From Escherichia coli (GTDB lineage: Bacteria; Pseudomonadota; Gammaproteobacteria; Enterobacterales; Enterobacteriaceae), in NCBI RefSeq assembly GCF_003991155.1, contig NZ_CP031295.1: 64,000 nucleotides of DNA; one strand, given 5' to 3'. The position numbers were made by a program, and so were the translations under genes. The notes below the pieces were generated by a model. It did no database searches, was not told the origin of the DNA, and saw only the letters and a program-made list of their open reading frames with translations. Within the stretch, counting starts at the first letter, position 1. Every line of letters begins with the position of its first letter. This document shows positions 7,584 through 57,024 of the stretch, one piece after another.

Positions 7584-8100
7584 TGAATATTATATCTGGG
7601 ACCACGGTCCCAGTTGTATTGTCGGTCTGATAATCAGTCTGGGACCACGGTCCCACTCATATTGTCGGTCTGATAATCAGTCTGGGACCACGGTCCCACT
7701 CATATTGTCGGTCTGATTATCGGTCTGGGACCACGGGCCCACTCATATTGTTAGTCTGCTAATCAGTCTGGGACCGCGGTCCCACTCGTATTGTTGGTCT
7801 GCTAATCAGTCTGGGACCACGGTCCCACTCATATTGTCGGTCTGCTAATCAGTCTGGGACCACGGTCCCACTCATATTGTCGGTCTGCTAATCAGTCTGG
7901 GACCACGGTCCCACTCATATTGTCGGTCTGCTAATCAGTCTGGGACCACGGTCCCACTCATATTGTTGGTCTGATTATCGGTCTGCGACCACGGTCCCAC
8001 TCATATTGTTAGTCTGATAATCAGTCTGGGACCGCGGTCCCACTCGTATTGTTGGTCTGCTAATCAGTCTGGGACCACGGTCTCACTTGTATTGTCGATC
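7584..8100 (+). repeat. sopC: sopC centromere: 12 tandem 43-bp repeats
   Basis: 12 copies of a 43-bp unit each containing the palindrome TGGGACCACGGTCCCA, with a few point variants. Confidence 0.9.
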
Positions 8101-8499
8101 TGATTATCAGCGTGAGACTACGATTCCATTAATGCCTGCCAGTGAGTGTGTGGAACATATCTTGGCCAGTGGCTTGGTCTGTGATGTGCTGCGTATACCG
8201 GGTGAACCGCCCCGCCGCTTGTTTGACCGCTATATTCTGCGGGAGTTTTCTTGGAGGCACGGGATGAAATCCGCAGCATGGCGGATGCCCTGGCAAAAAT
8301 CCGGAAATGATGACGATGGCGGGGAAAATCCCCGCCTTTTTCCTGCCGGTCCCCGGACAGAGCACAAAGGAAGTCGCCGCCGGCTCCGCTTTACCCGGCC
8401 ATGCGGGGCATGGCCTTGTGGGGGTTCAGTTATGTGGACGTCGAGTCGTGTGCGGGCTGTGCCGTGCCTCCATCTTAGCCGGGCTGGCGTTGATGCAAG

Positions 8500-20920: not shown

Positions 20921-21172
20921 ATGAATAAGCTGGTTTCTGATGGCAGCGTCAAAAAAATAAATTATCCGGTGCTGTATGAGTCCGGAATAACACCTCCGTT
21001 ATGTGAAGTCAGTGCACCAGAACCTGATGCGGGTGGGAAACGCATTGTGGCATATGTTTATAAATCATCACGGAGTACGGTTTTTGAAAATCCTGACATT
21101 GTAAAAACCTGTACGGTCAGGGATTTGAAGAAGGATTTTGTGAACTGCGATGAGAAAGGTGAGGGACAATGA
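20921..21172 (+). CDS. trbG: TrbG
   Basis: 83 aa, positional assignment between trbD and traV. Confidence 0.75.
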   Translation: MNKLVSDGSVKKINYPVLYESGITPPLCEVSAPEPDAGGKRIVAYVYKSSRSTVFENPDIVKTCTVRDLKKDFVNCDEKGEGQ

Positions 21173-21684
21173 AACAGATTTCTTTCTTTATTCCTCTGCT
21201 GGGGACCTTATTACTTTCCGGCTGTGCCGGAACCAGTACGGAATTTGAGTGTAACGCCACCACATCCGATACCTGTATGACGATGGAGCAGGCCAATGAG
21301 AAGGCCAAAAAACTGGAGCAGTCCTCAGAAGCAAAGCCGGTTGCGGCATCACTGCCGCGCCTGGCTGAAGGGAACTTCCGGACAATGCCGGTGCAGACCG
21401 TCACCGCGACCACTCCGTCCGGCAGCAGACCTGCGGTGACAGCACATCCGGAGCAGAAACTGCTGGCACCTCGCCCGCTGTTTACCGCTGCCCGGGAAGT
21501 GAAAACGGTTGTTCCGGTCAGTTCAGTTACGCCGGTAACACCTCCTCGTCCGCTAAGAACGGGTGAGCAGACGGCAGCATTATGGATAGCGCCTTATATT
21601 GATAACCAGGATGTTTATCATCAGCCATCCAGCGTGTTTTTTGTTATTAAACCGTCTGCGTGGGGAAAACCACGTATTAATTAA
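21169..21684 (+). CDS. traV: TraV outer-membrane lipoprotein
   Basis: 171 aa, lipobox LLLSGCAG. Confidence 0.9.
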   Translation: MKQISFFIPLLGTLLLSGCAGTSTEFECNATTSDTCMTMEQANEKAKKLEQSSEAKPVAASLPRLAEGNFRTMPVQTVTATTPSGSRPAVTAHPEQKLLAPRPLFTAAREVKTVVPVSSVTPVTPPRPLRTGEQTAALWIAPYIDNQDVYHQPSSVFFVIKPSAWGKPRIN

Positions 21685-21818
21685 CTGGCCCTGAAGTTGT
21701 ATATCAGCCGGCAATGCCGGCGGGCTTTCTGTATTCAAAATCTGCCTGTAAAACGAGTGCCCTGTGCGTGAAAAGGGATGGGCGGTAGCGTGTCAGAACA
21801 TGTCGGGAGGAATATTCC

Positions 21819-22040
21819 GTGAGTGATGAAGCCGATGAAGCATATTCAGTGACAGAACAACTGACCATGACAGGAATAAACCGGATACGCCAGAAAATAA
21901 ATGCTCATGGTATTCCTGTTTATCTCTGTGAAGCATGCGGAAATCCTATTCCGGAAGCCCGGCGGAAAATATTTCCCGGTGTGACGTTGTGCGTTGAATG
22001 TCAGGCGTATCAGGAAAGACAGAGAAAACATTATGCATAA
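21819..22040 (+). CDS. traR: TraR (DksA/TraR-family zinc-finger protein)
   Basis: 73 aa with CEACGNPIPEARRKIFPGVTLCVECQ four-Cys zinc finger. Confidence 0.9.
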   Translation: MSDEADEAYSVTEQLTMTGINRIRQKINAHGIPVYLCEACGNPIPEARRKIFPGVTLCVECQAYQERQRKHYA

Positions 22041-22199
22041 GTCAGTCGCAGAACATAGTGATTTAATTCCGGATGAACATGAGTGGATATTCAGAAAACA
22101 GAAATCTTTGTATATGCGCCGGGAAATGGCGCGTTAATTACAGGTATTCCCTTCATGGCTACCGCATTTCTCGCTTTATTTTTCAACTAAGGAATTCAT

Positions 22200-24784
22200 G
22201 TGAATAACCCACTTGAGGCCGTCACTCAGGCGGTTAACTCCCTCGTCACAGCACTGAAACTGCCTGACGAATCCGCAAAGGCCAATGAAGTTCTGGGCGA
22301 AATGAGCTTCCCGCAGTTCAGCCGTCTGCTGCCGTACCGTGATTACAACCAGGAATCCGGTCTGTTCATGAATGACACCACGATGGGCTTTATGCTGGAA
22401 GCCATCCCCATCAATGGGGCGAATGAGTCCATTGTGGAGGCCCTCGATCACATGCTGCGCACCAAACTGCCGCGCGGTATTCCGTTGTGTATCCATCTGA
22501 TGTCCAGTCAGCTGGTTGGTGACAGGATTGAATACGGGCTGCGTGAGTTCTCTGGTCAGGTGAACAGGCTGAACGGTTTAACGCCATTACCCGGGCCTAT
22601 TATATGAAAGCGGCAGCGACACAGTTTCCGCTGCCGGAGGATGAATCTGCCCGACCCTGCGCCATTACCGGTGTTTATCTCGTACTGTTCTCCTCGAAGA
22701 AAAAAGCCGGGCCGACATTCTGGAAATGGAAAACCGGTGAAAATCATCCGGGCGTCGTTACAGGGGCCAGTATCACCACACAGACGGTGGATGCACAGGC
22801 CTTTATCGATATTGTCGGGGAGATGATTAACCATAACCCGGACTCCTGTACCCGAAAAGACGTCAGCTGGACCCGTATTCTGATCTGAATTATCAGTGTG
22901 TGGAGGACAGTTTTGATCTGAAAGTCCGGGCTGATTACCTGACGCTGGGCCTGCGTGAGAACGGCAGGAACAGCACGGCCCGCATCCTGAATTTCCATCT
23001 GGCCCGTAACCCGGAAATCGCCTTCCTGTGGAACATGGCCGACAACTACAGCAACCTGCTGAACCCGGAACTGTCCATCTCCTGTCCGTTCATCCTGACG
23101 CTGACTCTGGTGGTGGAAGACCGGTGAAACCCACAGCGAAGCCAACCTGAAGTACATGGACTCGAGAAAAGTCGAAGACCTCCTATGCCAAATGGTTTCC
23201 GTCCGTGGAGAAAGAGGCGAAGGAGTGGGGAACTGCGTCAGCGGCTGGGCTCCGGTCAGTCCTCTGTCGTGTCCTACTTCCTCAACATCACAGCATTCTG
23301 CAAGGACAATAATGAAACGGCGCTGGAAGTGGAGCAGGACATCCTGAACAGCTTCCGTAAAACGGTTTTGAGCTGATTTCACCGCGCTTTAACCACATGC
23401 GCAATTTCCTGACCTGCCTTCCCTTTATGGCCGGGAAAGGGCTGTTTAAACAGCTGAAAGAGGCCGGTGTGGTTCAGCGCGCAGAGAGCTTTAATGTGGC
23501 CAACCTGATGCCGTTAGTGGCGGATAACCCCGACACCGGCAGGTCTGCTGGCACCCACCTACCGTAACCAGCTGGCGTTTATCGATATTTTCTTCCGGGG
23601 ATGAATAACACCAACTACAACATGGCGGTCTGTGGCACCTCCGGCCGGTAAAACCGGGCTGATACAGCCACTTATCCGCAGCGTGCTGGACTCCGGGGCT
23701 TTGCCGTGGTGTTTGACATGGGGATGGATATAAGTCCCTGTGTGAGAACATGGGCGGGTGTATCTGGACGGTGAAACCCTGCGTTTTAACCCGTTTGCGA
23801 ACATCACCGATATTGACCAGTCAGCGGAGCGTGTCCGTGACCAGTTGTCGGTGATGGCCAGCCCCAACGGTAACCGGATGAAGTGCATGAAGGTCTGCTG
23901 CTGCAGGCGGTCAGGCCTCTCTGGCTAAAAAGAACACAGGCGCGCATCGATGATGGTGGATTTCCTGAAAACGCCCGTGATAACGACCAGTATGCGAGTC
24001 ACCGACCATCCGCAGCCGTCTGGATGAAATGATTGTCCTGCTGGATCATATACGCCGGCGGCACTTACGGCCAGTATTTTAACTCTGATGAGCCGTCCCT
24101 GCGGGATGACGCAAAAATGGTGGTGCTGGAGCTGGGCGGACTGGAAGACCGTCCGTCACTGCTGGTTGCGGTGATGTTCTCCCTGATTATCTACATCGAG
24201 AACAGGATGTACCGCACGCCGCGTAACCTCAAGAAACTGAACGTTATTGATGAAGGCTGGCGTCTGCTGGACTTCAAAAATCACAAGGTCGGTGAATTTA
24301 TTGAGAAAGGCTACCGTACGGCCCGCCGTCATACCGGTGCCTATATCACCATCACACAGAACATCGTCGACTTTGACTCTGATAAGGCCTCCAGTGCTGC
24401 CCGCGCGGCATGGGGTAACTCCTCCTACAAAATTATCCTCAAACAGAGTGCGAAGGAGTTCGCGAAATACAACCAGCTGTATCCGGACCAGTTCCTGCCA
24501 CTGCAGCGTGACATGATTGGTAAGTTCGGTGCGGCCAAAGATCAGTGGTTCAGTTCCTGCTGCAGGTGGAAAACCATTCCCCGCACCGTCTGTTTGTGGA
24601 CCCGTTAAGCCGCGCCATGTACAGCTCTGACGGCCCGGATTTTGAGTTTGTGCAGCAGAAGCGTAAAGAGGGGCTGAGTATTCATGAGGCGGTATGGCAG
24701 CTGGCGTGGAAGAAGTCAGGGCCGGAGATGGCTTCGCTGGAAGCCCGGCTGGAAGAACATGAGAAATACAGGAGTGTGGCATGA
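22200..24784 (+). pseudogene. traC: traC (T4SS ATPase) disrupted by multiple frameshifts
   Basis: N-terminal 120 aa intact (22200-22560), then the TraC peptide continues through many short pieces in changing frames (e.g. 22900-23127, 23185-23376, 24033-24608, 24545-24784); overall length fits traC. Confidence 0.8.
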
Positions 24785-25162
24785 GTTCAACGCAGAAACC
24801 CGCCGACGTCACGGCAGAACAACGCATCCACTGGTGGTGGATGGTGCCGGATGCCCGGCAATGGTGTTACTGAACGCAGCCGTCAGTTACGGCATTGTCA
24901 GACTGAACGCACCGGTGACTGTCGCCTTCAACATGAAACAGACCGTGGATGCGTTTTTGACAGCGCCAGTCAGAAACAACTGTCAGAAGCACAGTCAAAA
25001 GCCCTTTCAGCGCGTTTAACACGGCACTGGAAGCCAGCCTGCAGGCGTGGCAGCAGAAACACCACGCGGTCATTCTGGTGTCGCCTGCTGTGGTACAGGG
25101 GCACCGGATATCACCGGGAAATCCAGCAGGATATTGCCCGGCGAATGAGGGCGGAACCATGA
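24781..25162 (+). pseudogene. trbI: trbI disrupted by frameshifts
   Basis: starts MSSTQKPADVTAE... at 24781; frame lost repeatedly; C-terminal ...IARRMRAEP readable in another frame. Confidence 0.65.
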
Positions 25163-25777
25163 GATGCCGGGGCTGATTGCCCTGCTGATATGGGGCAGAG
25201 GCCGCCGCCGATCTTGGTACCTGGGGCGATCTGTGGCCGGTAAAGGAGCCGGACATGCTGACGGTGATCATGCAGCGCCTGACGGCACTGGAGCAGTCCG
25301 GTGAGATGGGCCGGAAAATGGATGCCTTTAAGGAGCGGGTGATCCGCAACAGTCTGCGGCCCCTGCCGTGCCCGGTATCGGACGCACGGAGAAATACGGC
25401 AGCCGGTTGTTTGACCCGTCCGTCAGACTGGCTGCGGATATCCGGGATAACGAAGGGCGGGTGTTTGCCCGTCAGGGTGAAGTGATGAATCCGCTGCAGT
25501 ATGTTCCTTTAACCAGACGCTGTATTTCATCAATGGCGATGATCCGGCGCAGGTGGCCCGATGAAACGCCAGACGCCGCCCACACTGGAGAGCAAAATTA
25601 TCCTCGTGCAGGGCAGTATCCGGAGATGCAGAAAGCGCTGGACAGCCGTATTTACTTTGACCAGAACGGTGTGCTCTGCCAGCGCCTCGGCATTGATCAG
25701 GTCCCGGCACGGGTGCGCCGTTCCCGGCGATCGCTTCCTGAAGGTGGAATTTATTCCGGCAGGAGGGCAGAAAATGA
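25159..25777 (+). pseudogene. traW: traW disrupted by frameshifts
   Basis: MRCRGLIALLIWGQ... start at 25159; TraW-like pieces appear in several frames (25255-25485, 25368-25937). Confidence 0.65.
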
Positions 25778-26758
25778 AGCGAGGCCTGTGGCTGCTGATG
25801 TTCTTCCTTTCGCCGGTCATGTCCCTGCGGCGTCTGCGGATTCTGCCTGTGAGGGGCGTTTTGTAAACCCGATCACGGATATCTGCTGGAGCTGTATTTT
25901 CCCGCCTCGCTGGGCAGTATCAAAGTCAGTCAGGTAAGGTCCCCGACACGGCGAACCCGTCGATGCCCATTCAGATTTGTCCGGCACCGCCGCCGCTGTT
26001 CAGGCGTATCGGGCTGGCCATTGGTTACTGGGAGCCGATGGCGCTGACGGACGTCACCCGGTCACCGGGATGCATGGTTAACTGGGCTTCAGCCTGCCGG
26101 CTTTGGTAAAACGGCACAGGAACGGCGAAAAGGATGAGAAGCAGGTGAACGGGCGTTCTATCACGTTCACTGGTACAAATACCCGCTGACGTACTGGCTG
26201 AACATCATCACATCGCTGGGCTGTCTGGAAGGTGGTGACCTGGATATCGCTTATCTTTCTGAAATTGACCCCACCTGGACGGACAGCAGCCTGACCACCA
26301 TTCTCAATCCGGAAGCTGTCATCTTTGCCAATCCGATAGCACAGGGGGCCTGTGCAGCAGATGCCATTGCCAGCGCCTTTAATATGCCTCTCGATGTTCT
26401 GTTCTGGTGTGCCGGTTCGCAGGGCAGTATGTACCCGTTCAATGGCTGGGTGAGTAATGAGTCCAGTCCGTTGCAGTCCTCCCTGCTGGTCAGTGAACGC
26501 ATGGCGTTCAAGCTGCACCGTCAGGGCATGATTATGGAAACCATCGGGAAAAATAACGCCGTCTGTAATGAATATCCGTCCCCAATCCTGCCCAAAGAAC
26601 GCTGGCGTTACCAGATGGTGAATATGTACCCGGACAGCAGACAGTGCCACCCGTTCGGGCGCAGTGTGACCCGCTGGGAAACCGGGAAAAATCCGCCCAA
26701 TACAAAGAAAAACTTCGGCTACCTGATGTGGCGTAAACGTAACTGTGTCTTCCTGTGA
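25774..26758 (+). pseudogene. traU: traU disrupted by frameshifts (last 124 codons intact)
   Basis: MKRGLWLLMF... start at 25774; frame lost by ~25900 and regained by 26384 (ORF 26384-26758 is the TraU C-terminus). Confidence 0.7.
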
Positions 26759-26763
26759 GGTGA

Positions 26764-27405
26764 ATGATGAAGCTGAGTATGAAATCTCTGGCAGCACTGC
26801 TGATGATGCTGAACGGGGCGGTTATGGCGTCAGAAAACGTGAACACTCCTGAAAACCGCCAGTTCCTGAAGCAGCAGGAAAATTTAAGCAGACAACTGCG
26901 TGAAAAACCTGACCATCAGCTGAAAGCCTGGGCGGAGAAGCAGGTGCTGGAAAACCCCCTTCAGCGTTCAGATAACCATTTCCTGGATGAGCTGGTTCGT
27001 AAACAGCAGGCTTCGCAGGACGGGAAACCCCGGCAGGGTGCTCTGTATTTTGTGTCGTTTTCCATTCCCGAAGAGGGGCTGAAACGAATGCTGGGCGAAA
27101 CCCGGCACTACGGTATTCCGGCCACACTGCGGGGCATGGTGAACAATGACCTGAAGACCACCGCTGAAGCTGTGTTGTCCCTGGTGAAAGACGGAGCGAC
27201 TGATGGTGTTCAGATCGACCCGACGCTGTTTTCACAGTACGGCATTCGCACTGTACCGGCACTGGTGGTGTTCTGCAGTCATGGATACGACATCATCCGG
27301 GGAAACCTGCGGGTCGGCCAGGCGCTGGAGAAAGTGGCCGCCACGGGTGACTGCCGGCAGGTGGCTCATGATTTACTGGCAGGGAAAGGAGATTCCGGGA
27401 AATGA
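26764..27405 (+). CDS. trbC: TrbC pilus assembly protein
   Basis: 213 aa with signal peptide; conserved order. Confidence 0.85.
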   Translation: MMKLSMKSLAALLMMLNGAVMASENVNTPENRQFLKQQENLSRQLREKPDHQLKAWAEKQVLENPLQRSDNHFLDELVRKQQASQDGKPRQGALYFVSFSIPEEGLKRMLGETRHYGIPATLRGMVNNDLKTTAEAVLSLVKDGATDGVQIDPTLFSQYGIRTVPALVVFCSHGYDIIRGNLRVGQALEKVAATGDCRQVAHDLLAGKGDSGK

Positions 27406-29210
27406 AACGTATTTTACCTCTGATACTGGCTCTGGTTGCCGGCATGGCACAGGCTGACAGCAACAGTGATTACCGGGCCGGCTCTGATTTTGCTCACCAG
27501 ATCAAAGGACAGGGAAGCAGCAGTATTCAGGGCTTTAAGCCACAGGAGAGTATCCCCGGCTATAACGCGAATCCGGACGAGACAAAATATTACGGTGGCG
27601 TGACTGCCGGCGGGGATGGCGGCCTGAAAAATGACGGCACCACGGAATGGGCGACCGGTGAAACCGGAAAAACCATCACAGAGTCATTCATGAACAAGCC
27701 GAAAGACATTCTTTCACCGGATGCACCGTTTATCCAGACCGGCAGGGATGTGGTGAACCGGGCTGACAGCATTGTGGGAAACACCGGGCAGCAGTGCAGT
27801 GCGCAGGAGATTAGCCGGAGTGAATACACGAATTACACCTGTGAGCGGGATTTACAGGTGGAGCAGTACTGCACACGAACTGCCCGTATGGAGCTGCAGG
27901 GGAGTACCACATGGGAAACCCGGACGCTGGAGTATGAAATGAGTCAGCTACCTGCACGTGAAGTGAATGGTCAGTATGTTGTCTCCATTACCTCTCCCGT
28001 TACCGGTGAAATTGTCGATGCGCATTACAGCTGGAGTCGTACTTACCTGCAGAAGAGTGTACCTATGACAATTACAGTACTGGGAACCCCACTGAGCTGG
28101 AATGCCAAATACTCAGCAGATGCCTCATTTACACCAGTACAGAAAACACTGACTGCCGGTGTTGCTTTTACGTCATCTCACCCCGTCCGGGTCGGGAATA
28201 CAAAATTCAGACGTCATACGGCAATGAAGCTGCGTCTGGTTGTCAGGGTAAAAAAAGCCTCGTACACCCCGTATGTTGTCTGGTCTGAAAGCTGCCCGTT
28301 CAGCAAGGAGCTGGGGAAACTGACAAAAACAGAATGTACGGAGGCTGGCGGGAACAGGACGCTGGTGAAAGATGGTCAGTCATACAGCATGTACCAGAGC
28401 TGCTGGGCATACCGGGACACGTATGTCACGCAGTCAGCAGACAAGGGAACCTGTCAGACCTACACCGACAATCCTGCCTGTACCCTGGTGTCACACCAGT
28501 GCGCCTTTTACTCCGAAGAAGGTGCCTGTCTGCATGAATATGCCACCTACTCCTGCGAGTCAAAAACATCAGGGAAAGTGATGGTCTGTGGGGGAGACGT
28601 CTTCTGTCTCGATGGCGAATGCGATAAGGCTCAGAGCGGGCAGAGTAATGATTTTGCCGAAGCCGTTTCTCAGCTGGCGGCACTGGCCGCAGCAGGTAAG
28701 GATGTTGCGGCGCTGAACGGGGTGGATGTCCGTGCTTTCACCGGTCAGGCGAAATTTTGTAAGAAGGCTGCAGCCGGATACAGCAACTGCTGTAAGGACA
28801 GCGGCTGGGGACAGGATATCGGGCTGGCCAAATGCAGCAGTGATGAAAAGGCCCTGGCTAAAGCAAAATCAAACAAACTGACCGTCAGTGTCGGAGAGTT
28901 CTGTTCGAAGAAAGTGCTGGGTGTCTGCCTGGAGAAAAAACGCAGTTACTGTCAGTTTGATTCGAAGCTGGCGCAGATAGTCCAGCAGCAGGGGCGCAAC
29001 GGACAGCTGCGTATCAGTTTTGGCAGTGCGAAGCATCCTGACTGTCGGGGGATTACGGTTGATGAGCTGCAGAAAATTCAGTTCGACAGACTGGATTTCA
29101 CTAACTTCTACGAAGACCTGATGAATAACCAGAAAATCCCGGACAGTGGCGTTCTGACGCAGAAAGTGAAAGAGCAGATTGCTGACCAGCTGAAACAGGC
29201 AGGACAGTAA
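27402..29210 (+). CDS. traN: TraN mating-pair stabilisation outer-membrane protein
   Basis: 602 aa, signal peptide, Cys-rich C-terminal half. Confidence 0.9.
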   Translation: MKRILPLILALVAGMAQADSNSDYRAGSDFAHQIKGQGSSSIQGFKPQESIPGYNANPDETKYYGGVTAGGDGGLKNDGTTEWATGETGKTITESFMNKPKDILSPDAPFIQTGRDVVNRADSIVGNTGQQCSAQEISRSEYTNYTCERDLQVEQYCTRTARMELQGSTTWETRTLEYEMSQLPAREVNGQYVVSITSPVTGEIVDAHYSWSRTYLQKSVPMTITVLGTPLSWNAKYSADASFTPVQKTLTAGVAFTSSHPVRVGNTKFRRHTAMKLRLVVRVKKASYTPYVVWSESCPFSKELGKLTKTECTEAGGNRTLVKDGQSYSMYQSCWAYRDTYVTQSADKGTCQTYTDNPACTLVSHQCAFYSEEGACLHEYATYSCESKTSGKVMVCGGDVFCLDGECDKAQSGQSNDFAEAVSQLAALAAAGKDVAALNGVDVRAFTGQAKFCKKAAAGYSNCCKDSGWGQDIGLAKCSSDEKALAKAKSNKLTVSVGEFCSKKVLGVCLEKKRSYCQFDSKLAQIVQQQGRNGQLRISFGSAKHPDCRGITVDELQKIQFDRLDFTNFYEDLMNNQKIPDSGVLTQKVKEQIADQLKQAGQ

Positions 29211-29233
29211 GGTAGGGAAAATAACCGGGGGAA

Positions 29234-29497
29234 ATGATGAAGGTCATATTCACTTCTAATCGTCTTGTTGATTTTCTTATCCGGCTTTTGATTACAGCGA
29301 TTGTCATTTCCCCGGTAATTATCTGGTCGTGGGATACGGTAAAAGAAACCACTGCAGGTGAGATGCTTGCTGCCTGTTTTGTTATTTTTTACTCCGGTGT
29401 GCTCCTGTTTATTCTGTATTTTTGTTTTTCTGCCCTGACTGACCTGCAGAAACCTGATGATGAAAGAAAAAGTGATGAAAGGAATGAAGATGAATAA
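29234..29497 (+). CDS. trbE: TrbE
   Basis: 87 aa small membrane protein, positional. Confidence 0.7.
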   Translation: MMKVIFTSNRLVDFLIRLLITAIVISPVIIWSWDTVKETTAGEMLAACFVIFYSGVLLFILYFCFSALTDLQKPDDERKSDERNEDE

Positions 29498-30233
29498 AGC
29501 ATTACTGCCACTGTTACTCTGCTGCTTTATTTTTCCGGCGTCAGGAAAAGATGCAGGCTGGCAGTGGTATAACGAGAAAATAAATCCGAAGGAAAAAGAA
29601 AATAAACCAGTACCTGCAGCCCCCCGTCAGGAGCCGGACATTATGCAGAAACTGGCCGCACTGCAGACGGCAACAAAGCGGGCGCTGTACGAAGCTATTC
29701 TGTATCCCGGCGTGGATAATTTTGTGAAATATTTCCGGCTGCAGAATTACTGGACTCAGCAGGCCGGGCTTTTCACCATGAGCGCCAAAAAAGCCATGCT
29801 GGCGCATCCCGAACTGGACTATAACCTGCAGTACAGCCATTACAACGGCACGGTCCGGAACCAGCTGGCGGCAGACCAGGTGCAGCAGCGACAGGCCATT
29901 GCGAAACTGGCTGAACACTACGGCATCATGTTCTTTTACCGGGGGCAGGACCCCATCGACGGGCAGCTGGCGCAGGTCATTAATGGCTTCAGGAATACCT
30001 ATGGTCTGAGTGTTATTCCCGTTTCCGTGGATGGCGTGATTAATCCGCTGTTGCCGGATTCCCGGACTGACCAGGGGCAGGCGCAGCGCCTCGGCGTGAA
30101 ATATTTCCCGGCCATGATGCTGGTTGACCCGAAACAGGGCAGTGTTCGTCCGTTATCATACGGTTTTATTTCGCAGGACGACCTGGCAAAACAGTTCCTG
30201 AACGTTTCTGAAGATTTTAAACCGAACTTCTGA
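29490..30233 (+). CDS. traF: TraF pilus assembly protein (thioredoxin-like fold)
   Basis: 247 aa from MNKALLPLLLCCFIFPASG (signal peptide). Confidence 0.9.
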   Translation: MNKALLPLLLCCFIFPASGKDAGWQWYNEKINPKEKENKPVPAAPRQEPDIMQKLAALQTATKRALYEAILYPGVDNFVKYFRLQNYWTQQAGLFTMSAKKAMLAHPELDYNLQYSHYNGTVRNQLAADQVQQRQAIAKLAEHYGIMFFYRGQDPIDGQLAQVINGFRNTYGLSVIPVSVDGVINPLLPDSRTDQGQAQRLGVKYFPAMMLVDPKQGSVRPLSYGFISQDDLAKQFLNVSEDFKPNF

Positions 30234-30348
30234 ATTACGGATATTTTCCGTTCGTCAGTAAATTCCATTAATTCTGAACCTGATAATAATTCACCATTTA
30301 TTCCGGTAGTCCCTTATTTAATTCTCTGTATGACAGGAGAGTTTTACT

Positions 30349-30630
30349 GTGCATAAATATAAATTCTCTTTACCCCGGCTTGATATTACGGGAATGTGGG
30401 TATTTTCCCTGGGTGTCTGGTTTCATATCGTCGCCCGTCTTGTTTACAGCAAACCCTGGATGGCTTTTCTTCTGGCGGAGTTGATTGCGGCCATCCTTGT
30501 GCTGTTCGGCGCATACCAGGTGCTGGATGCATGGATTGCCCGTGTCAGCCGGGAAGAGCGTGAGGCACTGGAAGCCAGGCAACAGGCCATGATGGAAGGG
30601 CAGCAGGAGGGCAGACATGTCTCTCATTAA
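30349..30630 (+). CDS. traQ: TraQ pilin chaperone
   Basis: 93 aa (GTG start) inner-membrane protein; trbA/artA, which I recall between traF and traQ in F, are absent (only ~115 bp spacer). Confidence 0.8.
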   Translation: MHKYKFSLPRLDITGMWVFSLGVWFHIVARLVYSKPWMAFLLAELIAAILVLFGAYQVLDAWIARVSREEREALEARQQAMMEGQQEGRHVSH

Positions 30631-31162
30631 ATCACTGTTGTTCACCCTGTTGCTGGCAGCCGCTGCCGTGCAGGCCTCCACCCGGGATGAAATTGAACGA
30701 CTCTGGAATCCGCAGGGCATGGCCGCGCAGCCTGCACAACCGGCAGCAGACACATCAGCCAGGACAGAAAAGCCGGCTCCCCGCTGGTTCCGCCTCAGCA
30801 ACGGCAGGCAGGTTAACCTGGCCGACTGGAAGGTGGTGCTGTTTATGCAGGGGCATTGCCCTTACTGCCACCAGTTTGACCCGGTACTGAAACAGCTGGC
30901 ACAGCAGTACGGCTTTTCCGTTTTTCCCTACACCCTGGATGGTCAGGGGGATAACGCCTTTCCGGAGGCATTGCCGGTGCCACCGGACGTGATGCAGACC
31001 TTCTTCCCGAATATCCCGGTGGCCACACCGACCACCTTCCTGGTCAACGTCAACACGCTTGAGGCATTACCGCTTTTACAGGGGGCAACGGATGCTGCCG
31101 GTTTTATGGCGCGGATGGATACCGTTCTGCAGATGTACGGAGGGAAAAAAGGTGCGAAATAA
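30617..31162 (+). CDS. trbB: TrbB periplasmic thiol-disulfide isomerase
   Basis: 181 aa, signal peptide, CPYC active-site motif. Confidence 0.85.
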   Translation: MSLIKSLLFTLLLAAAAVQASTRDEIERLWNPQGMAAQPAQPAADTSARTEKPAPRWFRLSNGRQVNLADWKVVLFMQGHCPYCHQFDPVLKQLAQQYGFSVFPYTLDGQGDNAFPEALPVPPDVMQTFFPNIPVATPTTFLVNVNTLEALPLLQGATDAAGFMARMDTVLQMYGGKKGAK

Positions 31163-31454
31163 GCAGGTGGTGTTACTCATTGCCGGAATATCCGGCATCG
31201 CGACGGGAATAATCGTCAGCCTGAATATCCCCTTTATCCATCAGGGGCTTTTTTATCCCGCCAGCCCTGTAGAAATTGTCGTTTCGCTGTGCCTTACCTT
31301 TTCTGTTTCTGTTGTGTTTTTTGTGGGGGCAATTGTGGGATGGATTTCGGTGTCTGAAATATATTACAGCCGCAGGACTGGACGGAAATATCGGGATATA
31401 CCTGCTGAAATGTCGTATGCGCCGGGAGAACAAATTAAGGGAGGGCAAGAATGA
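31152..31454 (+). CDS. trbJ: TrbJ-like small membrane protein
   Basis: 100 aa from GTG 31152 with RBS GGAGGG; two hydrophobic segments; only one ORF fits between trbB and traH, so a separate trbF is absent. Confidence 0.5.
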   Translation: MRNKQVVLLIAGISGIATGIIVSLNIPFIHQGLFYPASPVEIVVSLCLTFSVSVVFFVGAIVGWISVSEIYYSRRTGRKYRDIPAEMSYAPGEQIKGGQE

Positions 31455-32827
31455 TGCCACGCATTAAACCTCTTCTGGTTCTTTGTGCTGCTTTACTGAC
31501 GGTCACACCCGCAGCGTCAGCGGATGTGAACAGCGACATGAATCAGTTCTTTAACAAGCTGGGCTTCGCCTCCAATACCACACAGCCGGGCGTCTGGCAG
31601 GGGCAGGCCGCCGGTTATGCTTACGGTGGCTCCCTGTATGCCCGTACTCAGGTCAAAAATGTTCAGCTGATTTCCATGACGCTGCCGGATATCAATGCCG
31701 GATGTGGCGGCATCGACGCCTATCTCGGCTCGTTCAGCTTTATTAATAGCGAGCAGTTGCAGCGTTTTGTTAAGCAGATTATGAGCAATGCTGCCGGTTA
31801 CTTCTTTGACCTTGCCCTGCAGACAACGGTGCCGGAAATCAAAACCGCAAAAGACTTCCTGCAGAAAATGGCAAGCGACATTAACAGTATGAACCTCAGT
31901 TCCTGCCAGGCGGCGCAGGGGATTATTGGCGGGCTTTTCCCCCGGACGCAGGTGTCCCAGCAAAAAGTCTGTCAGGACATTGCCGGTGAGAGCAATATTT
32001 TTGCTGACTGGGCTGCTTCCCGGCAGGGATGTACCGTTGGCGGGAAATCTGACAGCGTCAGGGATAAAGCCAGCGACAAGGATAAGGAGCGGGTGACCAA
32101 AAACATTAACATCATGTGGAATGCGCTTTCCAAAAACAGAATGTTTGACGGCAACAAAGAGCTGAAAGAGTTTGTGATGACGCTGACCGGCTCACTGGTG
32201 TTTGGTCCCAACGGCGAAATCACACCGCTGTCGGCCAGAACCACTGACCGCTCAATTATCCGGGCCATGATGGAAGGCGGCACAGCAAAAATTTATCACT
32301 GCAACGATTCTGATAAATGCCTGAAAGTGGTGGCAGACACACCGGTGACTATAAGCCGGGATAATGCACTGAAGTCTCAGATTACTAAACTTCTGGCCAG
32401 CATTCAGAACAAGGCGGTCAGTGACACGCCTCTGGATGACAAGGAAAAAGGCTTTATTTCCAGTACCACCATCCCCGTCTTCAAATACCTGGTTGACCCG
32501 CAGATGCTCGGTGTTTCCAACAGCATGATTTACCAGCTGACGGACTATATCGGTTACGACATCCTGCTGCAGTACATTCAGGAGCTGATACAGCAGGCCC
32601 GGGCGATGGTGGCCACGGGAAATTATGACGAAGCAGTTATCGAACATATTAACGACAATATGAATGATGCCACCCGGCAGATTGCGGCGTTTCAGTCACA
32701 GGTGCAGGTACAGCAGGATGCGCTGCTGGTTGTCGATCGTCAGATGAGCTACATGCGTCAGCAGCTTTCCGCCCGCATGCTCAGTCGTTACCAGAACAAC
32801 TATCACTTCGGAGGGAGCACGCTGTGA
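31451..32827 (+). CDS. traH: TraH pilus assembly protein
   Basis: 458 aa, signal peptide, C-terminal coiled coil. Confidence 0.9.
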   Translation: MMPRIKPLLVLCAALLTVTPAASADVNSDMNQFFNKLGFASNTTQPGVWQGQAAGYAYGGSLYARTQVKNVQLISMTLPDINAGCGGIDAYLGSFSFINSEQLQRFVKQIMSNAAGYFFDLALQTTVPEIKTAKDFLQKMASDINSMNLSSCQAAQGIIGGLFPRTQVSQQKVCQDIAGESNIFADWAASRQGCTVGGKSDSVRDKASDKDKERVTKNINIMWNALSKNRMFDGNKELKEFVMTLTGSLVFGPNGEITPLSARTTDRSIIRAMMEGGTAKIYHCNDSDKCLKVVADTPVTISRDNALKSQITKLLASIQNKAVSDTPLDDKEKGFISSTTIPVFKYLVDPQMLGVSNSMIYQLTDYIGYDILLQYIQELIQQARAMVATGNYDEAVIEHINDNMNDATRQIAAFQSQVQVQQDALLVVDRQMSYMRQQLSARMLSRYQNNYHFGGSTL

Positions 32828-35646
32828 ATGAAGTTTATGTGATTGCCGGTGGTGAGTGGTTGCGGAATAACCTGAATGCCATTGCCGCCTTTATGGGAAC
32901 CCGGACGTGGGATTCCATTGAGAAAATTGCTCTCACCCTGTCTGTTGTTGCGGTGGCCTTTATGTGGGTACAGCGCCATAACGTGATGGATTTGCTGGGC
33001 TGGGCGGCGGTGTTTGTACTTATCAGCCTGCTGGTTAATATCCGCACATCGGTGCAGATTATTGATAACAGTGACCTGGTCAAAGTTCACCGGGCGGATA
33101 ATGTGCCGGTCGGACTGGCGATGCCACTTTCACTGACGACCCGTATCGGGCATGCAATGGTGGCCAGTTACGAGATGATCTACACGCAACCGGACAGTTT
33201 CACCTACAGCAAAACGGGGATGCTGTTTGGTGCAGAACTGGTATCAAAAAGCACTGACTTTTTGTCTCGTAATCCGGAAATCGCCAATCTTTTCCAGGAT
33301 TATGTGCAGAACTGCGTGATGGGGGATATTTACCTGAACCACAAATACACGCTGGAGGAGCTGATGGCCTCCTCTGATCCCTACACGCTGATTTTTTCCC
33401 GTCCCAGTCCGCTGCGGGGCGTTTATGACAGCAATAATAATTTCGTAACCTGTAAGGATGCGTCGGTTTCGTTGAAAGACAAGCTGAATCTGGACACACA
33501 GAGTGGCGGAAAAACCTGGCATTATTATGCCCAGCAGTTATTTGGTGGTCGCCCTGATCCGAACCTGTTGTTCAGTACGCTGATTGGCGACAGTTACCGT
33601 TACTTCTATGACTCAAGTAAATCAGCCAGCCAGATCATCCGCCAGAATGTCACCATTAATGCGCTGAAGGAGGGGATCACCAGTTATGCAGCACGTAATG
33701 GTGACTCAGCCAGCCTGGTGAATCTGGCCACCACGTCATCGATGGAGAAGCAACGTCTGGCACATGTCTCCATCGGTCATGTGGCGATGCGGACACTGCC
33801 CATGACGCAGACCATCCTGACGGGGATCGCCATTGGTATTTTCCCGCTTCTGGTACTGGCGGCTGTCTTCAACAAACTGACGCTGTCCGTCCTGAAAGGC
33901 TATGTGTTTGCCCTGATGTGGTTGCAGTCATGGCCAATGTTGTACGCCATTCTGAACAGCGCCATGACATTTTATGCGAAGCAGAATGGTGCACCGGTGG
34001 TGCTCTCGGAAATTTCACAGATACAGCTGAAATACTCCGATCTGGCTTCCACTGCCGGGTATCTTTCCATGATGATCCCGCCATTATCCTGGATGATGGT
34101 CAGGGGACTCGGGGCCGGATTTTCCAGTGTGTACAGCCATTTCGCTTCCTCTGCTATCAGCCCGACTGCCAGTGCGGCAGGTAGTGTGGTTGACGGTAAT
34201 TACTCCTACGGCAACATGCAGACGGAAAACGTGAACGGATTCAGCTGGAGCACCAACAGCACCACGTCGTTTGGTCAGATGATGTACCAGACCGGCAGTG
34301 GCGCAACCGCTACACAGACCCGTGACGGTAATATGGTGATGGATGCAAGCGGAGCGATGTCCCGGTTACCGGTCGGCATCAATGCAACGCGTCAGATTGC
34401 GGCGGCACAACAGGAAATGGCCCGGGAAGCATCGAACAGAGCAGAAAGTGCCCTGCATGGGTTCAGCAGCAGTATTGCCAGTGCCTGGAACTCGCTCAGT
34501 CAGTTTGGTTCTAACCGGGGGAGCAGTGATTCTGTCACCGGTGGTGCTGACAGCACGATGAGCGCACAGGACTCCATGATGGCCAGCCGTATGCGCAGCG
34601 CAGTGGAAAGCTATGCGAAGGCGCATAATATCAGTAATGAGCAGGCGACAAGAGAACTGGCATCAAGAAGTACGAGAGGTTCTGCGGGGATGTATGGCGA
34701 TGCTCATGCTGAATGGGGGGTTAAACCTAAAATTCTTGGTGTTGGTGGTGGCGTAGGTGTTAGAGGTGGTGGTCGGGCAAGTATTGACTGGAGTGATGAG
34801 GATGCGCATCAGGCCAGCAGTGGTTCACGGGCCAGCCATGATGCTCGCCATGATATCGATGCCAGGGCTACACAAGACTTTAAAGAGGCCAGCGATTACT
34901 TTACCAGTCGCAAGGTCAGTGAATCCGGCAGCCATACGGACAATAATGCCGATTCCCGTGTGGACCAGCTGTCTGCAGCCCTGAACTCAGCAAAACAGAG
35001 TTACGACCAGTACACGACGAATATGACCCGCAGCCATGAATATGCTGAAATGGCATCCCGTACTGAAAGCATGAGTGGGCAGATGAGTGAAGACCTGTCG
35101 CAACAGTTTGCACAGTATGTGATGAAACACGCGCCGCAGGATGCCGAAGCTATTCTGACAAACACCAGTTCACCGGAGATTGCAGAACGCCGTCGGGCTA
35201 TGGCGTGGTCTTTTGTTCAGGAACAGGTGCAGCCTGGTGTTGATAATGCCTGGCGTGAATCCCGTGGGGACATCGGTAAAGGAATGGAGAGCGTACCTTC
35301 GGGTGGTGGCAGCCAGGATATTATTGCTGATCATCAGGGGCATCAGGCCATTATTGAGCAAAGAACGCAGGACAGTAATATCCGTAATGATGTAAAACAT
35401 CAGGTTGATAATATGGTCACAGAATACCGAGGCAATATCGGAGATACTCAGAGCAGCATACGTGGCGAAGAAAATATTGTAGGAAGACAGTATTCTGAAC
35501 TACAAAATCACCATAAAACAGAGGCATTATCTCAGAATAATAAATATAATGAAGAAAAATCGGGTCAGGAAAGAATGCCCGGGGCTGACAGTCCACAGGA
35601 ACTGATGAAAAGAGCAAAGGAGTATCAGGATAAGCACAAGCAATAA
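32824..35646 (+). CDS. traG: TraG mating-pair stabilisation / entry-exclusion determinant
   Basis: 940 aa, polytopic N-terminal membrane domain plus large periplasmic C-terminal domain. Confidence 0.9.
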   Translation: MNEVYVIAGGEWLRNNLNAIAAFMGTRTWDSIEKIALTLSVVAVAFMWVQRHNVMDLLGWAAVFVLISLLVNIRTSVQIIDNSDLVKVHRADNVPVGLAMPLSLTTRIGHAMVASYEMIYTQPDSFTYSKTGMLFGAELVSKSTDFLSRNPEIANLFQDYVQNCVMGDIYLNHKYTLEELMASSDPYTLIFSRPSPLRGVYDSNNNFVTCKDASVSLKDKLNLDTQSGGKTWHYYAQQLFGGRPDPNLLFSTLIGDSYRYFYDSSKSASQIIRQNVTINALKEGITSYAARNGDSASLVNLATTSSMEKQRLAHVSIGHVAMRTLPMTQTILTGIAIGIFPLLVLAAVFNKLTLSVLKGYVFALMWLQSWPMLYAILNSAMTFYAKQNGAPVVLSEISQIQLKYSDLASTAGYLSMMIPPLSWMMVRGLGAGFSSVYSHFASSAISPTASAAGSVVDGNYSYGNMQTENVNGFSWSTNSTTSFGQMMYQTGSGATATQTRDGNMVMDASGAMSRLPVGINATRQIAAAQQEMAREASNRAESALHGFSSSIASAWNSLSQFGSNRGSSDSVTGGADSTMSAQDSMMASRMRSAVESYAKAHNISNEQATRELASRSTRGSAGMYGDAHAEWGVKPKILGVGGGVGVRGGGRASIDWSDEDAHQASSGSRASHDARHDIDARATQDFKEASDYFTSRKVSESGSHTDNNADSRVDQLSAALNSAKQSYDQYTTNMTRSHEYAEMASRTESMSGQMSEDLSQQFAQYVMKHAPQDAEAILTNTSSPEIAERRRAMAWSFVQEQVQPGVDNAWRESRGDIGKGMESVPSGGGSQDIIADHQGHQAIIEQRTQDSNIRNDVKHQVDNMVTEYRGNIGDTQSSIRGEENIVGRQYSELQNHHKTEALSQNNKYNEEKSGQERMPGADSPQELMKRAKEYQDKHKQ

Positions 35647-37179: not shown

Positions 37180-39387
37180 ATGAGTTTTAACGCAAAGGAT
37201 ATGACCCAGGGCGGTCAGATTGCGTCCATGCGTATCCGCATGTTCAGCCAGATCGCCAATATCATGCTTTACTGCCTGTTTATTTTTTTCTGGATACTCG
37301 TTGGTCTGGTTTTATGGGTAAAAATAAGCTGGCAGACGTTTGTGAACGGCTGTATTTACTGGTGGTGTACCACGCTGGAAGGTATGCGGGATTTAATCAG
37401 GTCCCAGCCGGTCTATGAGATCCAGTATTACGGCAAAACCTTCCGGATGAACGCTGCTCAGGTACTGCATGATAAATATATGATCTGGTGCGGAGAGCAG
37501 CTATGGTCCGCATTCGTTCTGGCCACAGTTGTGGCACTGGTTATTTGCCTGATTACCTTCTTTGTTGTCTCCTGGATTCTGGGGCGTCAGGGTAAACAAC
37601 AGAGCGAAAATGAAGTCACAGGTGGTCGTCAGCTGACAGACAATCCGAAAGACGTTGCCCGGATGCTGAAAAAAGACGGCAAGGACTCCGATATACGGAT
37701 TGGCGACCTGCCGATTATCCGGGATTCCGAAATCCAGAACTTCTGTCTGCACGGCACGGTCGGGGCCGGTAAGTCGGAAGTTATCCGTCGTCTGGCCAAC
37801 TACGCCCGTCAGCGTGGAGATATGGTGGTGATTTATGACCGTTCAGGGGAATTTGTTAAAAGTTACTATGATCCCTCCATCGATAAAATCCTGAATCCGC
37901 TGGATGCCCGCTGTGCCGCCTGGGATTTGTGGAAGGAGTGCCTGACACAGCCGGATTTTGATAATACCGCGAACACGCTGATCCCGATGGGCACAAAAGA
38001 GGACCCGTTCTGGCAGGGTTCAGGACGTACCATTTTTGCGGAAGCGGCGTACCTGATGCGTAATGACCCCAACCGCAGCTACAGCAAACTGGTGGACACA
38101 CTGCTTTCCATCAAAATCGAAAAACTGCGTACCTTCCTGCGTAATTCACCGGCGGCCAACCTGGTGGAAGAGAAAATTGAGAAAACGGCGATTTCCATCC
38201 GTGCTGTGCTGACCAACTACGTGAAAGCCATCCGTTACCTGCAGGGGATTGAGCATAACGGTGAGTCTTTTACCATCCGTGACTGGATGCGTGGTGTCCG
38301 GGAAGATCAGAAAAACGGCTGGCTGTTTATCTCGTCGAATGCCGACACCCATGCCTCCCTGAAGCCGGTGATCTCCATGTGGCTGTCCATTGCCATTCGT
38401 GGTCTGCTGGCAATGGGAGAAAACCGTAACCGTCGTGTGTGGTTTTTCTGTGATGAGCTACCCACGTTACACAAACTGCCGGACCTGGTGGAGATCCTGC
38501 CGGAAGCCCGTAAGTTCGGTGGCTGTTATGTGTTTGGTATCCAGTCCTATGCCCAGCTGGAAGATATCTACGGTGAGAAAGCGGCTGCCACGCTGTTTGA
38601 CGTCATGAACACCCGTGCCTTTTTCCGTTCTCCCAGCCATAAGATTGCAGAGTTCGCTGCCGGTGAGATTGGTGAGAAAGAGCACCTGAAAGCCAGCGAG
38701 CAGTATTCCTACGGTGCTGATCCGGTACGTGACGGGGTATCGACCGGTAAGGATATGGAGCGCCAGACGCTGGTCAGTTATTCCGACATTCAGTCTCTGC
38801 CGGATCTGACCTGTTATGTCACCCTGCCCGGACCGTATCCGGCAGTAAAACTCTCTCTGAAATATCAGACACGACCGAAGGTCGCTCCGGAGTTTATTCC
38901 GCGTGACATCAACCCGGAAATGGAGAACCGTCTGAGTGCCGTACTTGCCGCAAGGGAAGCAGAAGGTCGTCAGATGGCCAGCCTCTTCGAACCGGATGTG
39001 CCGGAAGTTGTTTCCGGAGAAGACGTGACTCAGGCTGAACAGCCGCAACAGCCGCAACAGCCGCAACAGCCGCAACAGCCGCAACAGCCGCAACAGCCGC
39101 AACAGCCGGTGTCTTCTGCCATCAACGATAAGAAGTCAGATTCAGGTGTGAATGTTCCGGCAGGGGGGATCGAGCAGGAGCTGAAAATGAAACCGGAAGA
39201 AGAGATGGAACAGCAACTGCCACCCGGGATCAGTGAATCCGGTGAAGTGGTGGATATGGCCGCTTATGAGGCATGGCAACAGGAAAATCATCCGGACATC
39301 CAGCAGCAGATGCAGCGTCGTGAAGAGGTGAACATTAATGTGCACCGGGAGCGTGGGGAGGATGTTGAGCCGGGAGATGATTTCTGA
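37180..39387 (+). CDS. traD: TraD type IV coupling protein
   Basis: 735 aa; N-terminal transmembrane segments, Walker [10 protein letters not shown]-terminal (QQP)n repeat tract and acidic tail. Confidence 0.9.
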
Positions 39388-55760: not shown

Positions 55761-55907
55761 CTGTCAGACCAAGTTTACTCATATATACTTTAGATTGATT
55801 TAAAACTTCATTTTTAATTTAAAAGGATCTAGGTGAAGATCCTTTTTGATAATCTCATGACCAAAATCCCTTAACGTGAGTTTTCGTTCCACTGAGCGTC
55901 AGACCCC

Positions 55908-56815: not shown

Positions 56816-56822
56816 AGGCCTT

Positions 56823-56847
56823 TGTCGTTTTCAGAAGACGGCTGCAC
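56823..56847. repeat. IRi, 25-bp inverted repeat at the intI1 end of a class 1 integron
   Basis: TGTCGTTTTCAGAAGACGGCTGCAC read directly. Confidence 0.7.
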
Positions 56848-57024
56848 TGAACGTCAGAAGCCGACTGCACTATAGCAGCGGAGGGGTTGGATCCATCAGG
56901 CAACGACGGGCTGCTGCCGGCCATCAGCGGACGCAGGGAGGACTTTCCGCAACCGGCCGTTCGATGCGGCACCGATGGCCTTCGCGCAGGGGTAGTGAAT
57001 CCGCCAGGATTGACTTGCGCTGCC

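What the first reader, a model, noticed from the sequence alone, without database searches (positions are those of the whole stretch)
22560..26400. Cluster of frameshifts confined to traC-trbI-traW-traU, apparently at homopolymer runs
Every other tra gene, including the very long traI, traG and traD, is one clean ORF. From about 22560 to 26380, however, the TraC, TrbI, TraW and TraU peptides can only be followed by hopping between frames every 50-300 bp (track pieces 22604-22888, 22900-23127, 23185-23376, 24033-24608, 24545-24784, 25255-25485, 25368-25937, 26384-26758). The interval is about 4.56 kb, roughly the summed size of the four genes, so nothing large is inserted. Where I compared the DNA with the TraC and TraU protein sequences as I remember them, the frame breaks seemed to sit at short mononucleotide runs shortened by one base (GGG to GG, AAAAA to AAAA), but I have no reference DNA and could not confirm individual indels. 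That pattern is the signature of base-calling error in a poorly covered region, not of slow pseudogene decay. If the changes are real, the plasmid lacks the T4SS ATPase TraC and assembly proteins TraW/TraU and cannot self-transfer, while keeping oriT, relaxase and coupling protein.
Basis: partly seen in the sequence, partly recalled or inferred. Interest (0 to 1): 0.75.

Follow-up and report, generated by a model that had tools for sequence, protein, structure and literature searches.

The report
Unpolished nanopore error patch in traC-traU
The broken conjugation genes traC, trbI, traW and traU are almost certainly not real pseudogenes: a 3.6-kb stretch of the plasmid record carries the typical errors of uncorrected nanopore sequencing, so the finding is a data-quality artefact rather than biology.

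Summary
Between 22552 and 26151 the window differs from close F-plasmid relatives by 55 deletions (71 bases) and 1 insertion. The roughly 47 kb of window outside the patch that aligns to close relatives shows no indels of this kind.

The errors follow sequence motifs. They hit 17 of 19 homopolymers of 5 or more bases (2 of 215 outside the patch) and 8 of 35 four-base runs. The mix of deletion bias, dependence on run length and Dcm-motif errors is the published error profile of Oxford Nanopore consensus on native enterobacterial DNA.

Putting the missing bases back gives full-length traC (875 aa), trbI (128), traW (210) and traU (330) with no stop codons. None of about 6,600 database records with this traC segment shares the indels.

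The patch is really two error-laden segments (22552-24053 and 24554-26151) around a clean 500-bp island. It overlaps the zone where the plasmid switches between two F-plasmid lineages. That suggests short-read correction failed in a locally ambiguous or repeated region, but this part is inference.

Verdict: not a real feature, low interest.

The parts
22552..24053 (.). Error-laden segment 1: uncorrected long-read consensus, 31 indel events
   Evidence: The first error is at the CCTGG at 22552; the last intact error-prone site upstream is GGGG at 22416.
24054..24553 (.). Clean 500-bp island inside the patch. It has no indels and both of its homopolymers of 5 or more bases are intact. It contains the block of type-A alleles at 24073-24383.
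   Evidence: Expected 7.6 events at the patch's motif-specific rates; P(none) about 2e-5.
24554..26151 (.). Error-laden segment 2: uncorrected long-read consensus, 25 indel events
   Evidence: The last error is in a GGGG run at 26151; the next error-prone site (CCTGG at 26239) and all later ones are intact.
22200..24784 (+). traC (F-type T4SS ATPase), apparent pseudogene: 33 deletion events (44 bases) + 1 insertion; 875 aa with no stop once restored
24781..25162 (+). trbI, 5 one-base deletions; 128 aa once restored
25159..25777 (+). traW, 9 deletion events (14 bases); 210 aa once restored
25774..26758 (+). traU, 8 one-base deletions, all before 26152; 330 aa once restored and identical to the TraU translated from the annotated traU of pEC5931-1 (L001), WP_023148235.1
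22962..23035 (.). Main switch from F-plasmid lineage A (NZ_AP027785-like, left 23 kb) to lineage B (NZ_AP023307-like, right 28 kb). Further A/B alternations follow up to 27593.

Best explanation
Window 22552-26151 is a stretch of raw Oxford Nanopore long-read consensus that was never corrected with accurate reads, while the rest of the window is at short-read accuracy. Nanopore base-calling of native enterobacterial DNA under-counts homopolymers and miscalls 5-methylcytosine-containing Dcm sites (CCAGG/CCTGG). That produces dense one-base deletions, which break traC, trbI, traW and traU into frame-hopping pieces. The genes are most likely intact in the real plasmid, which is probably conjugative.

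Why only this stretch is affected is inferred, not shown. It overlaps the zone where the plasmid alternates between two closely related F-plasmid lineages, and its only clean part is a 500-bp block of locally distinctive alleles. This fits a hybrid assembly in which short reads could not be placed unambiguously. One way is that a second near-identical traC-traU copy elsewhere in the sample, or on the plasmid outside the window, captured the reads. Another is that the assembler bridged a tangled graph region with long-read consensus. In either case only the locally unique island would be corrected or anchored.
For: Shown:
(1) 55 deletions and 1 insertion all lie within 3.6 kb. There are no homopolymer- or Dcm-type indels in the roughly 47 kb of the window outside the patch that aligns to close relatives.
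(2) Motif dependence: homopolymers of 5 or more bases are disrupted at 17/19 sites in the patch against 2/215 outside; 4-mers at 8/35 against 1/469; CCWGG at 10/11 against 0/114 (11/12 counting the site at 22552). The CCWGG errors include T>C on the middle base at 24746, 24856 and 25559.
(3) Every substitution in the patch that is not next to an indel or at a Dcm site is an allele of reference A or B, so no private point mutations accompany 56 indels.
(4) Restoring the deleted bases gives full-length traC, trbI, traW and traU without stops, and TraU is identical to the reference protein.
(5) No record among 2857 E. coli complete-genome records and 3738 PLSDB plasmids exceeds 96.7% identity over the error-laden sub-segment 23500-24053. 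All 10 contigs fetched through the identical TraN carry intact 875/128/210/330-aa genes.
(6) Literature: ONT consensus errors in Enterobacteriaceae are dominated by Dcm-motif errors followed by wrong homopolymer lengths (PMC6591954). Nanopore reads under-report homopolymer length (PMC10039527). Errors in repeats often survive short-read polishing (Polypolish abstract).
Supporting the inferred part: the clean island is statistically real (P about 2e-5) and contains the block of A alleles. The A-to-B switch lies inside the patch.
Against: No reads, depth or quality values are available, so the artefact is inferred from pattern alone. The source record was not found in any collection. No second copy of the region exists inside the 64-kb window, so the ambiguous-mapping explanation for the confinement rests on sequence I cannot see. 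The left 400 bp of the patch (22552-22962) carries lineage-A alleles, so 'error-laden = lineage B, clean = lineage A' does not hold. Only 1 of 11 Dam (GATC) sites has an indel nearby (a deletion 2 bases past the motif), so no Dam effect is evident. This does not contradict the cited error profile, which reports Dcm and homopolymer errors.
Confidence: 0.95

Rival explanations
1. The indels are real. The plasmid carries genuinely decayed traC, trbI, traW and traU and is non-conjugative but still mobilisable, keeping oriT, relaxase and coupling protein.
For: Frameshifted tra genes do occur in natural F-like plasmids. The sequence as given has no long ORF across the four genes.
Against: 56 indels come with no private substitutions or nonsense mutations. 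Nearly every homopolymer of 5 or more bases in 3.2 kb is hit while 213 of 215 outside are untouched. The ratio is 55:1 deletions to insertions. Deletions or T>C changes fall on the central base of Dcm sites, whereas the known natural Dcm hotspot (from general knowledge) is C>T deamination of the methylated cytosine. The boundaries are sharp and there is a clean island. No other database record shares the indels.
Confidence: 0.02
2. It is an artefact from another technology: a gap filled with low-coverage 454, Ion Torrent or PacBio CLR data, or poor Sanger reads.
For: All these platforms, or low-coverage consensus from them, can give homopolymer-length errors. Residual errors in PacBio CLR consensus are also biased towards deletions (general knowledge).
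Against: 11 of 12 CCWGG sites are wrong. Amplification-based platforms (454, Ion Torrent, Sanger of PCR products) do not see methylation, and 5mC does not cause PacBio miscalls to my knowledge. 454 and Ion Torrent give both over- and under-calls, not 55:1 deletions. The Dcm-plus-homopolymer profile is the one described for ONT (PMC6591954).
Confidence: 0.03
3. The window is a chimeric mis-join of two co-resident F-like plasmids (lineage A on the left, lineage B on the right). The assembler crossed over in their shared traC-traU region, and the error patch marks the false junction.
For: The left 23 kb matches lineage A and the right 28 kb matches lineage B at 0 substitutions over 28-51 kb. The switch lies in the patch. 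The exact A|B|A|B mosaic of traC and trbC is absent from PLSDB and from the protein-position index.
Against: pEC5931-1 is a natural-looking complete plasmid with almost the same A-to-B switch in traC, about 100 bp away, so such recombinants exist. The A/B alternation continues into clean sequence at 27117-27593. Both lineages are IncFIA/FIB/FIC and would be incompatible (general knowledge). This rival concerns the plasmid's structure. It is compatible with, not opposed to, the artefact reading of the frameshifts.
Confidence: 0.15

Closest known systems
Residual Oxford Nanopore consensus errors (Dcm-motif and homopolymer-length errors) in bacterial assemblies, as characterised by Wick, Judd & Holt 2019 (PMC6591954)
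   Same: The error classes match: errors at CCAGG/CCTGG, shortened homopolymers, and a minority of other indels. Deletions dominate. The event density of about 1.8 per 100 bp in the affected sequence is above the highest per-class consensus error rates quoted from that paper (0.4% at Dcm motifs, 0.53% at homopolymers with its oldest basecaller version), and would fit old-basecaller or low-depth long-read consensus.
   Different: Here the errors are confined to two adjacent segments totalling 3.2 kb in an otherwise accurate sequence, rather than spread over the whole assembly.
Errors that survive short-read polishing in repeat regions of hybrid assemblies (the problem addressed by Polypolish, PMC8812927)
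   Same: A local patch of long-read-type errors sits in an otherwise polished assembly, within sequence that is near-identical among co-occurring F-like plasmids. A locally distinctive 500-bp block is clean.
   Different: The presumed second copy was not observed, and none lies within the 64-kb window. The cause of the failed correction is therefore inferred.
traC-trbI-traW-traU of IncF plasmids such as pEC5931-1 (NZ_CP104593.1) and pSAL4567-1 (NZ_AP023307.1)
   Same: Same gene order and size. After the deleted bases are restored, the sequence is 99.3-99.6% identical to pEC5931-1.
   Different: As written, the window's copy lacks 71 bases and carries one extra. Its underlying A|B|A|B allele mosaic matches no database record exactly.

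Membership tests
Uncorrected nanopore consensus (sequencing artefact) | Indel probability rises steeply with homopolymer length, and deletions dominate | tested here: met
   0.7%, 1.6%, 5.8%, 25% and about 87-94% of runs of length 1, 2, 3, 4 and 5 or more carry a deletion; 55 deletions against 1 insertion
Uncorrected nanopore consensus (sequencing artefact) | Errors concentrated at Dcm methylation motifs CCAGG/CCTGG (native DNA) | tested here: met
   11 of 12 CCWGG sites in the patch are wrong (9 with deletions, 2 more with T>C); 0 of 114 outside the patch
Uncorrected nanopore consensus (sequencing artefact) | Removing the indels restores intact, conserved genes, with no accompanying private substitutions | tested here: met
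   Restored lengths 875, 128, 210 and 330 aa with no stops. All other substitutions are A or B alleles.
Uncorrected nanopore consensus (sequencing artefact) | Not reproduced in independent accurate reads; low or ambiguous short-read support at the site | not testable with these tools
   No reads or quality values are available. Indirectly, none of about 6,600 related records shares the indels.
Genuine pseudogenes (mutational decay) | Indels accompanied by substitutions and nonsense mutations at comparable or higher rates, without strict dependence on motifs | tested here: not met
   No private substitutions apart from those at Dcm sites or adjacent to indels. Motif dependence is extreme.
Genuine pseudogenes (mutational decay) | Lesions shared by related plasmids or lineages | tested here: not met
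   Best identity over the error-laden sub-segment is 96.7% in PLSDB and in E. coli complete genomes
F-type T4SS genes traC, trbI, traW, traU | Position, order and sequence identity to annotated F-like tra genes | tested here: met
   The region is collinear with annotated traC-trbI-traW-traU in L001-L004; about 99% identical after correction
Phase-variable or programmed frameshift locus | One or a few specific slippery tracts per gene that toggle expression | tested here: not met
   56 events across four genes, including non-repeat and Dcm contexts

The most novel reading that the evidence does not exclude
The deletions are real and record a burst of localised error-prone DNA synthesis, for example Pol IV-dependent double-strand-break repair. 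That process is known from general knowledge to give -1 frameshifts at mononucleotide runs on F' plasmids. Here it would have acted at the recombination junction between two F-plasmid lineages, inactivating four transfer genes in one event.
Probability: 0.01. Interest if true: 0.8.

Novelty: not a real feature. Interest (0 to 1): 0.08.

Why it matters
There is little biology here. The practical value is for curation. The record would be annotated with four pseudogenes, and pipelines that require an intact TraC ATPase and TraW/TraU would call the plasmid non-conjugative or merely mobilisable, although it very probably transfers itself. The case also gives a simple sequence-only diagnostic: CCWGG errors plus length-dependent homopolymer deletions in a sharply bounded block. 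It can flag unpolished long-read patches in hybrid assemblies of Dcm-positive enterobacteria without access to reads. Such patches may also mark places where related co-resident replicons confuse assembly.

Tried and rejected
1. I looked for the source record, or any record sharing the indels, in PLSDB and in RefSeq complete E. coli genomes. None was found; best identities were 98.2% and 97.4% over the region and 96.7% over an error-laden sub-segment.

2. I searched for an intact natural copy with the same A|B|A|B mosaic. The predicted traC DNA reaches at best 99.3%, to pEC5931-1. The predicted intact TraC protein is not on record. The window's 212-aa TrbC occurs in only one 2.4-kb metagenome contig, which differs at 14 DNA positions including five of the six A-allele sites at 27117-27251, so it is a coincidental protein match. 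The 213-aa ORF version is not on record because the annotated start is the second Met. The 10 contigs carrying the identical TraN are no closer than pEC5931-1.

3. NZ_CP117035 looked like a possible perfect reference because it scored highest on the right flank, but its TraC accession (WP_001064265.1) is the same as lineage B's.

4. A second copy of traC-traU inside the window, which would explain failed polishing, is absent.

5. Enrichment at Dam (GATC) sites: only 1 of 11 sites has an indel nearby, so none is evident.

6. A simple rule 'error-laden = lineage B, clean = lineage A' is rejected, because 22552-22962 is error-laden but lineage A.

7. My first two MAFFT set-ups failed on anchoring and gave no output. 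One search's automatic fill counted 91 bases because of the reference overhangs at the alignment ends. Counts in this report use the BLAST-based table.
Full report
**The observation.** The window carries an F-type transfer region. In 22604-26758 the + strand has no ORF longer than 191 aa, whereas the neighbouring tra genes are single clean ORFs: traB 475 aa, trbC 213, traN 602, traH 458, traG 940, traD 735, traI 1756. Megablast of 22000-27500 against PLSDB matched thousands of F-like plasmids. The 5501 query bases aligned to 5571 reference bases, so about 70 bases are missing.

**Indel table.** I aligned window 21100-33500 to two fully annotated relatives, pEC5931-1 (NZ_CP104593.1, L001) and NZ_CP037904.1 (L002). 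This gave 55 deletion events (43 of one base, 10 of two, 2 of four; 71 bases) and one inserted base at 23937. All lie between 22552 and 26151, and there are none in the rest of the alignment. Per gene the counts are traC (22200-24784) 33 deletions + 1 insertion, trbI (24781-25162) 5, traW (25159-25777) 9, and traU (25774-26758) 8.

**Which sequences are hit.** The chance that a run carries a deletion rises with its length: 0.7% for single bases, 1.6% for 2-mers, 5.8% for 3-mers, 25% for 4-mers, 13 of 15 5-mers and 3 of 4 runs of 6 or more. Nine of the 12 CCWGG (Dcm) sites in the interval carry a deletion inside the motif. Two more (24746, 24856) carry a T>C change on the central base, as does 25559, which also has a deletion. 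So 11 of 12 Dcm sites are wrong. The remaining events sit in short tandem repeats (TTCC-TTCC, GTGT, AGAG, TGTG) or pyrimidine-rich contexts.

**Controls outside the patch.** Against the best local references, the rest of the window shows 2 of 215 homopolymers of 5 or more bases, 1 of 469 4-mers and 0 of 114 CCWGG sites differing. Inside the patch the figures are 17/19, 8/35 and 10/11 (Fisher p = 1e-21, 2e-9 and 6e-14). The few indels elsewhere are multi-base differences in variable regions and are not of this type.

**Are there other mutations?** I used two references that bracket the window. Lineage A is NZ_AP027785 (L003), and window 1-22500 is 99.6% identical to it. Lineage B is NZ_AP023307 (L004), which shows 0 substitutions over 28-51 kb. 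A site-by-site comparison with A, B and pEC5931-1 shows that every substitution in the patch falls into one of three groups: an allele of A or B, an alignment shift next to an indel, or one of the three Dcm T>C changes. So 56 indels are accompanied by no ordinary private point mutations.

**Restoring the bases.** Filling the gaps from the references gives traC 875 aa, trbI 128 aa, traW 210 aa and traU 330 aa, each ending at the normal stop with no internal stop. TraU is identical to the reference protein. The residual amino-acid differences trace to indel-adjacent shifts, A/B alleles or the Dcm T>C changes, for example W>R and L>P.

**Independent records.** Over an error-laden sub-segment (23500-24053, 14 events) the best identity is 96.7% among 2857 matching records of complete E. 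coli genomes and 3738 PLSDB plasmids, so none shares the indels. Ten contigs that encode a TraN identical to the window's all carry intact 875/128/210/330-aa genes.

**Interpretation.** Four features combine here: strong deletion bias, dependence on run length, errors at Dcm motifs, and no accompanying substitutions. This is the consensus error profile described for Oxford Nanopore sequencing of native Enterobacteriaceae DNA. In that study, with default basecaller models, Dcm-motif errors made up a large share of consensus errors, about 70% for the then-current ONT basecallers, followed by wrong homopolymer lengths (PMC6591954). Nanopore reads also under-report homopolymer length (PMC10039527).

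Methylation-dependent errors cannot arise on platforms that sequence amplified DNA, which argues against 454, Ion Torrent or Sanger gap filling (general knowledge). Real decay or a mutator process cannot hit almost every long homopolymer in 3.2 kb and spare 213 of 215 elsewhere. The known natural lesion at Dcm sites is C>T at the methylated cytosine, not loss or T>C of the central base (general knowledge). I conclude with about 95% confidence that the frameshifts are artefacts and that the four genes are intact in the real plasmid.

**Fine structure, and why only this stretch (partly inferred).** The patch is not uniform. 24054-24553 has no errors although it contains two homopolymers of 5 or more bases and three to four 4-mers. 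At the patch's motif-specific rates 7.6 events were expected, and P(none) is about 2e-5. The boundaries are sharp: the last intact error-prone site upstream is GGGG at 22416, and CCTGG at 26239 and all later sites downstream are intact.

The patch also overlaps a zone of lineage alternation:
- A up to 22962
- B over 23035-24058
- A over 24073-24383
- B over 24476-27100
- A over 27117-27251
- B again, except two A alleles at 27590 and 27593

The clean island contains the internal A block. Short-read polishing is known to leave errors in repeats because read placement is ambiguous there (Polypolish abstract). A plausible scenario is that a near-identical traC-traU copy existed elsewhere in the sample, or on the part of the plasmid outside the window. 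That would leave only the locally distinctive island corrected, or used as a short-read anchor between long-read bridges. I could not test this. No second copy lies within the window, and the first 400 bp of the patch are lineage A, so the correspondence is imperfect.

**Is the mosaic itself real?** pEC5931-1 has almost the same A-to-B switch in traC, about 100 bp away, so natural recombinants of this kind exist. The exact mosaic of the window is not in PLSDB, where the best match is 99.3%. Its predicted intact TraC is not on record. Its TrbC protein occurs only in one unrelated short metagenome contig. A chimeric join of two co-resident plasmids therefore cannot be excluded (about 15%). That question concerns the plasmid's structure and does not affect the reading of the frameshifts.

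**Verdict.** This is not a real biological feature and it has low interest. Its practical consequence is that the record would be mis-annotated with four pseudogenes and misclassified as non-conjugative.

Noticed in passing
window 22962-27593: The plasmid alternates between two F-plasmid lineages (NZ_AP027785-like and NZ_AP023307-like) in blocks A|B|A|B|A|B|A|B, and part of this lies in clean sequence (27117-27251, 27590-27593). The exact mosaic matches no database record. It is either a recent recombinant or an assembly chimera.
   Followed up: partly
window 7595-8110: Twelve tandem 43-bp repeats lie just downstream of the ORFs at 5358-6533 and 6533-7504, which match the sopA and ParB/RepB/Spo0J partition genes annotated in relative NZ_AP027785. 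From general knowledge this looks like the sopC centromere of the F partition system.
   Followed up: no
window 63388-63910: There are 14.5 tandem 36-bp iteron-like repeats. In relative CP115334.1 (typed IncFIA/IncFIC/IncR) the same array lies next to a replication initiation gene. So the window's plasmid appears to be a multi-replicon fusion: an F backbone, a Tn3/TEM-1 module flanked by an IS26 remnant, and an IncR-like module.
   Followed up: partly
window 10699 and 10713: The window lacks one base (C) at 10699 and two bases (TC) at 10713 relative to both reference lineages. The net change is -3, with about 14 bp read in a shifted frame. Neither site is a long homopolymer or a Dcm site. Real variant or error was not resolved.
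   Followed up: no
window 56102-57567: Four small non-homopolymer indels separate the window from its closest relative CP115334.1 (99.87% over 10 kb). The window's ORFs there (55871-56644 and 57243-57839, minus strand) are open, so the differences may be errors in the other record.
   Followed up: no
window 39038-39108: A perfect 9-bp repeat (AACAGCCGC, 7.9 copies) lies at the 3' end of traD. It probably accounts for the traD length differences among relatives (726-735 aa) and for the break in the alignment to NZ_AP023307 near 39065-39081; not checked directly.
   Followed up: no
NZ_CP065102.1 (Salmonella plasmid), record 52177-52746: This PLSDB record has no traC annotated under the match and is one base shorter than other references over the same 554-base query. 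It may carry a similar isolated homopolymer error or a genuine traC frameshift.
   Followed up: no
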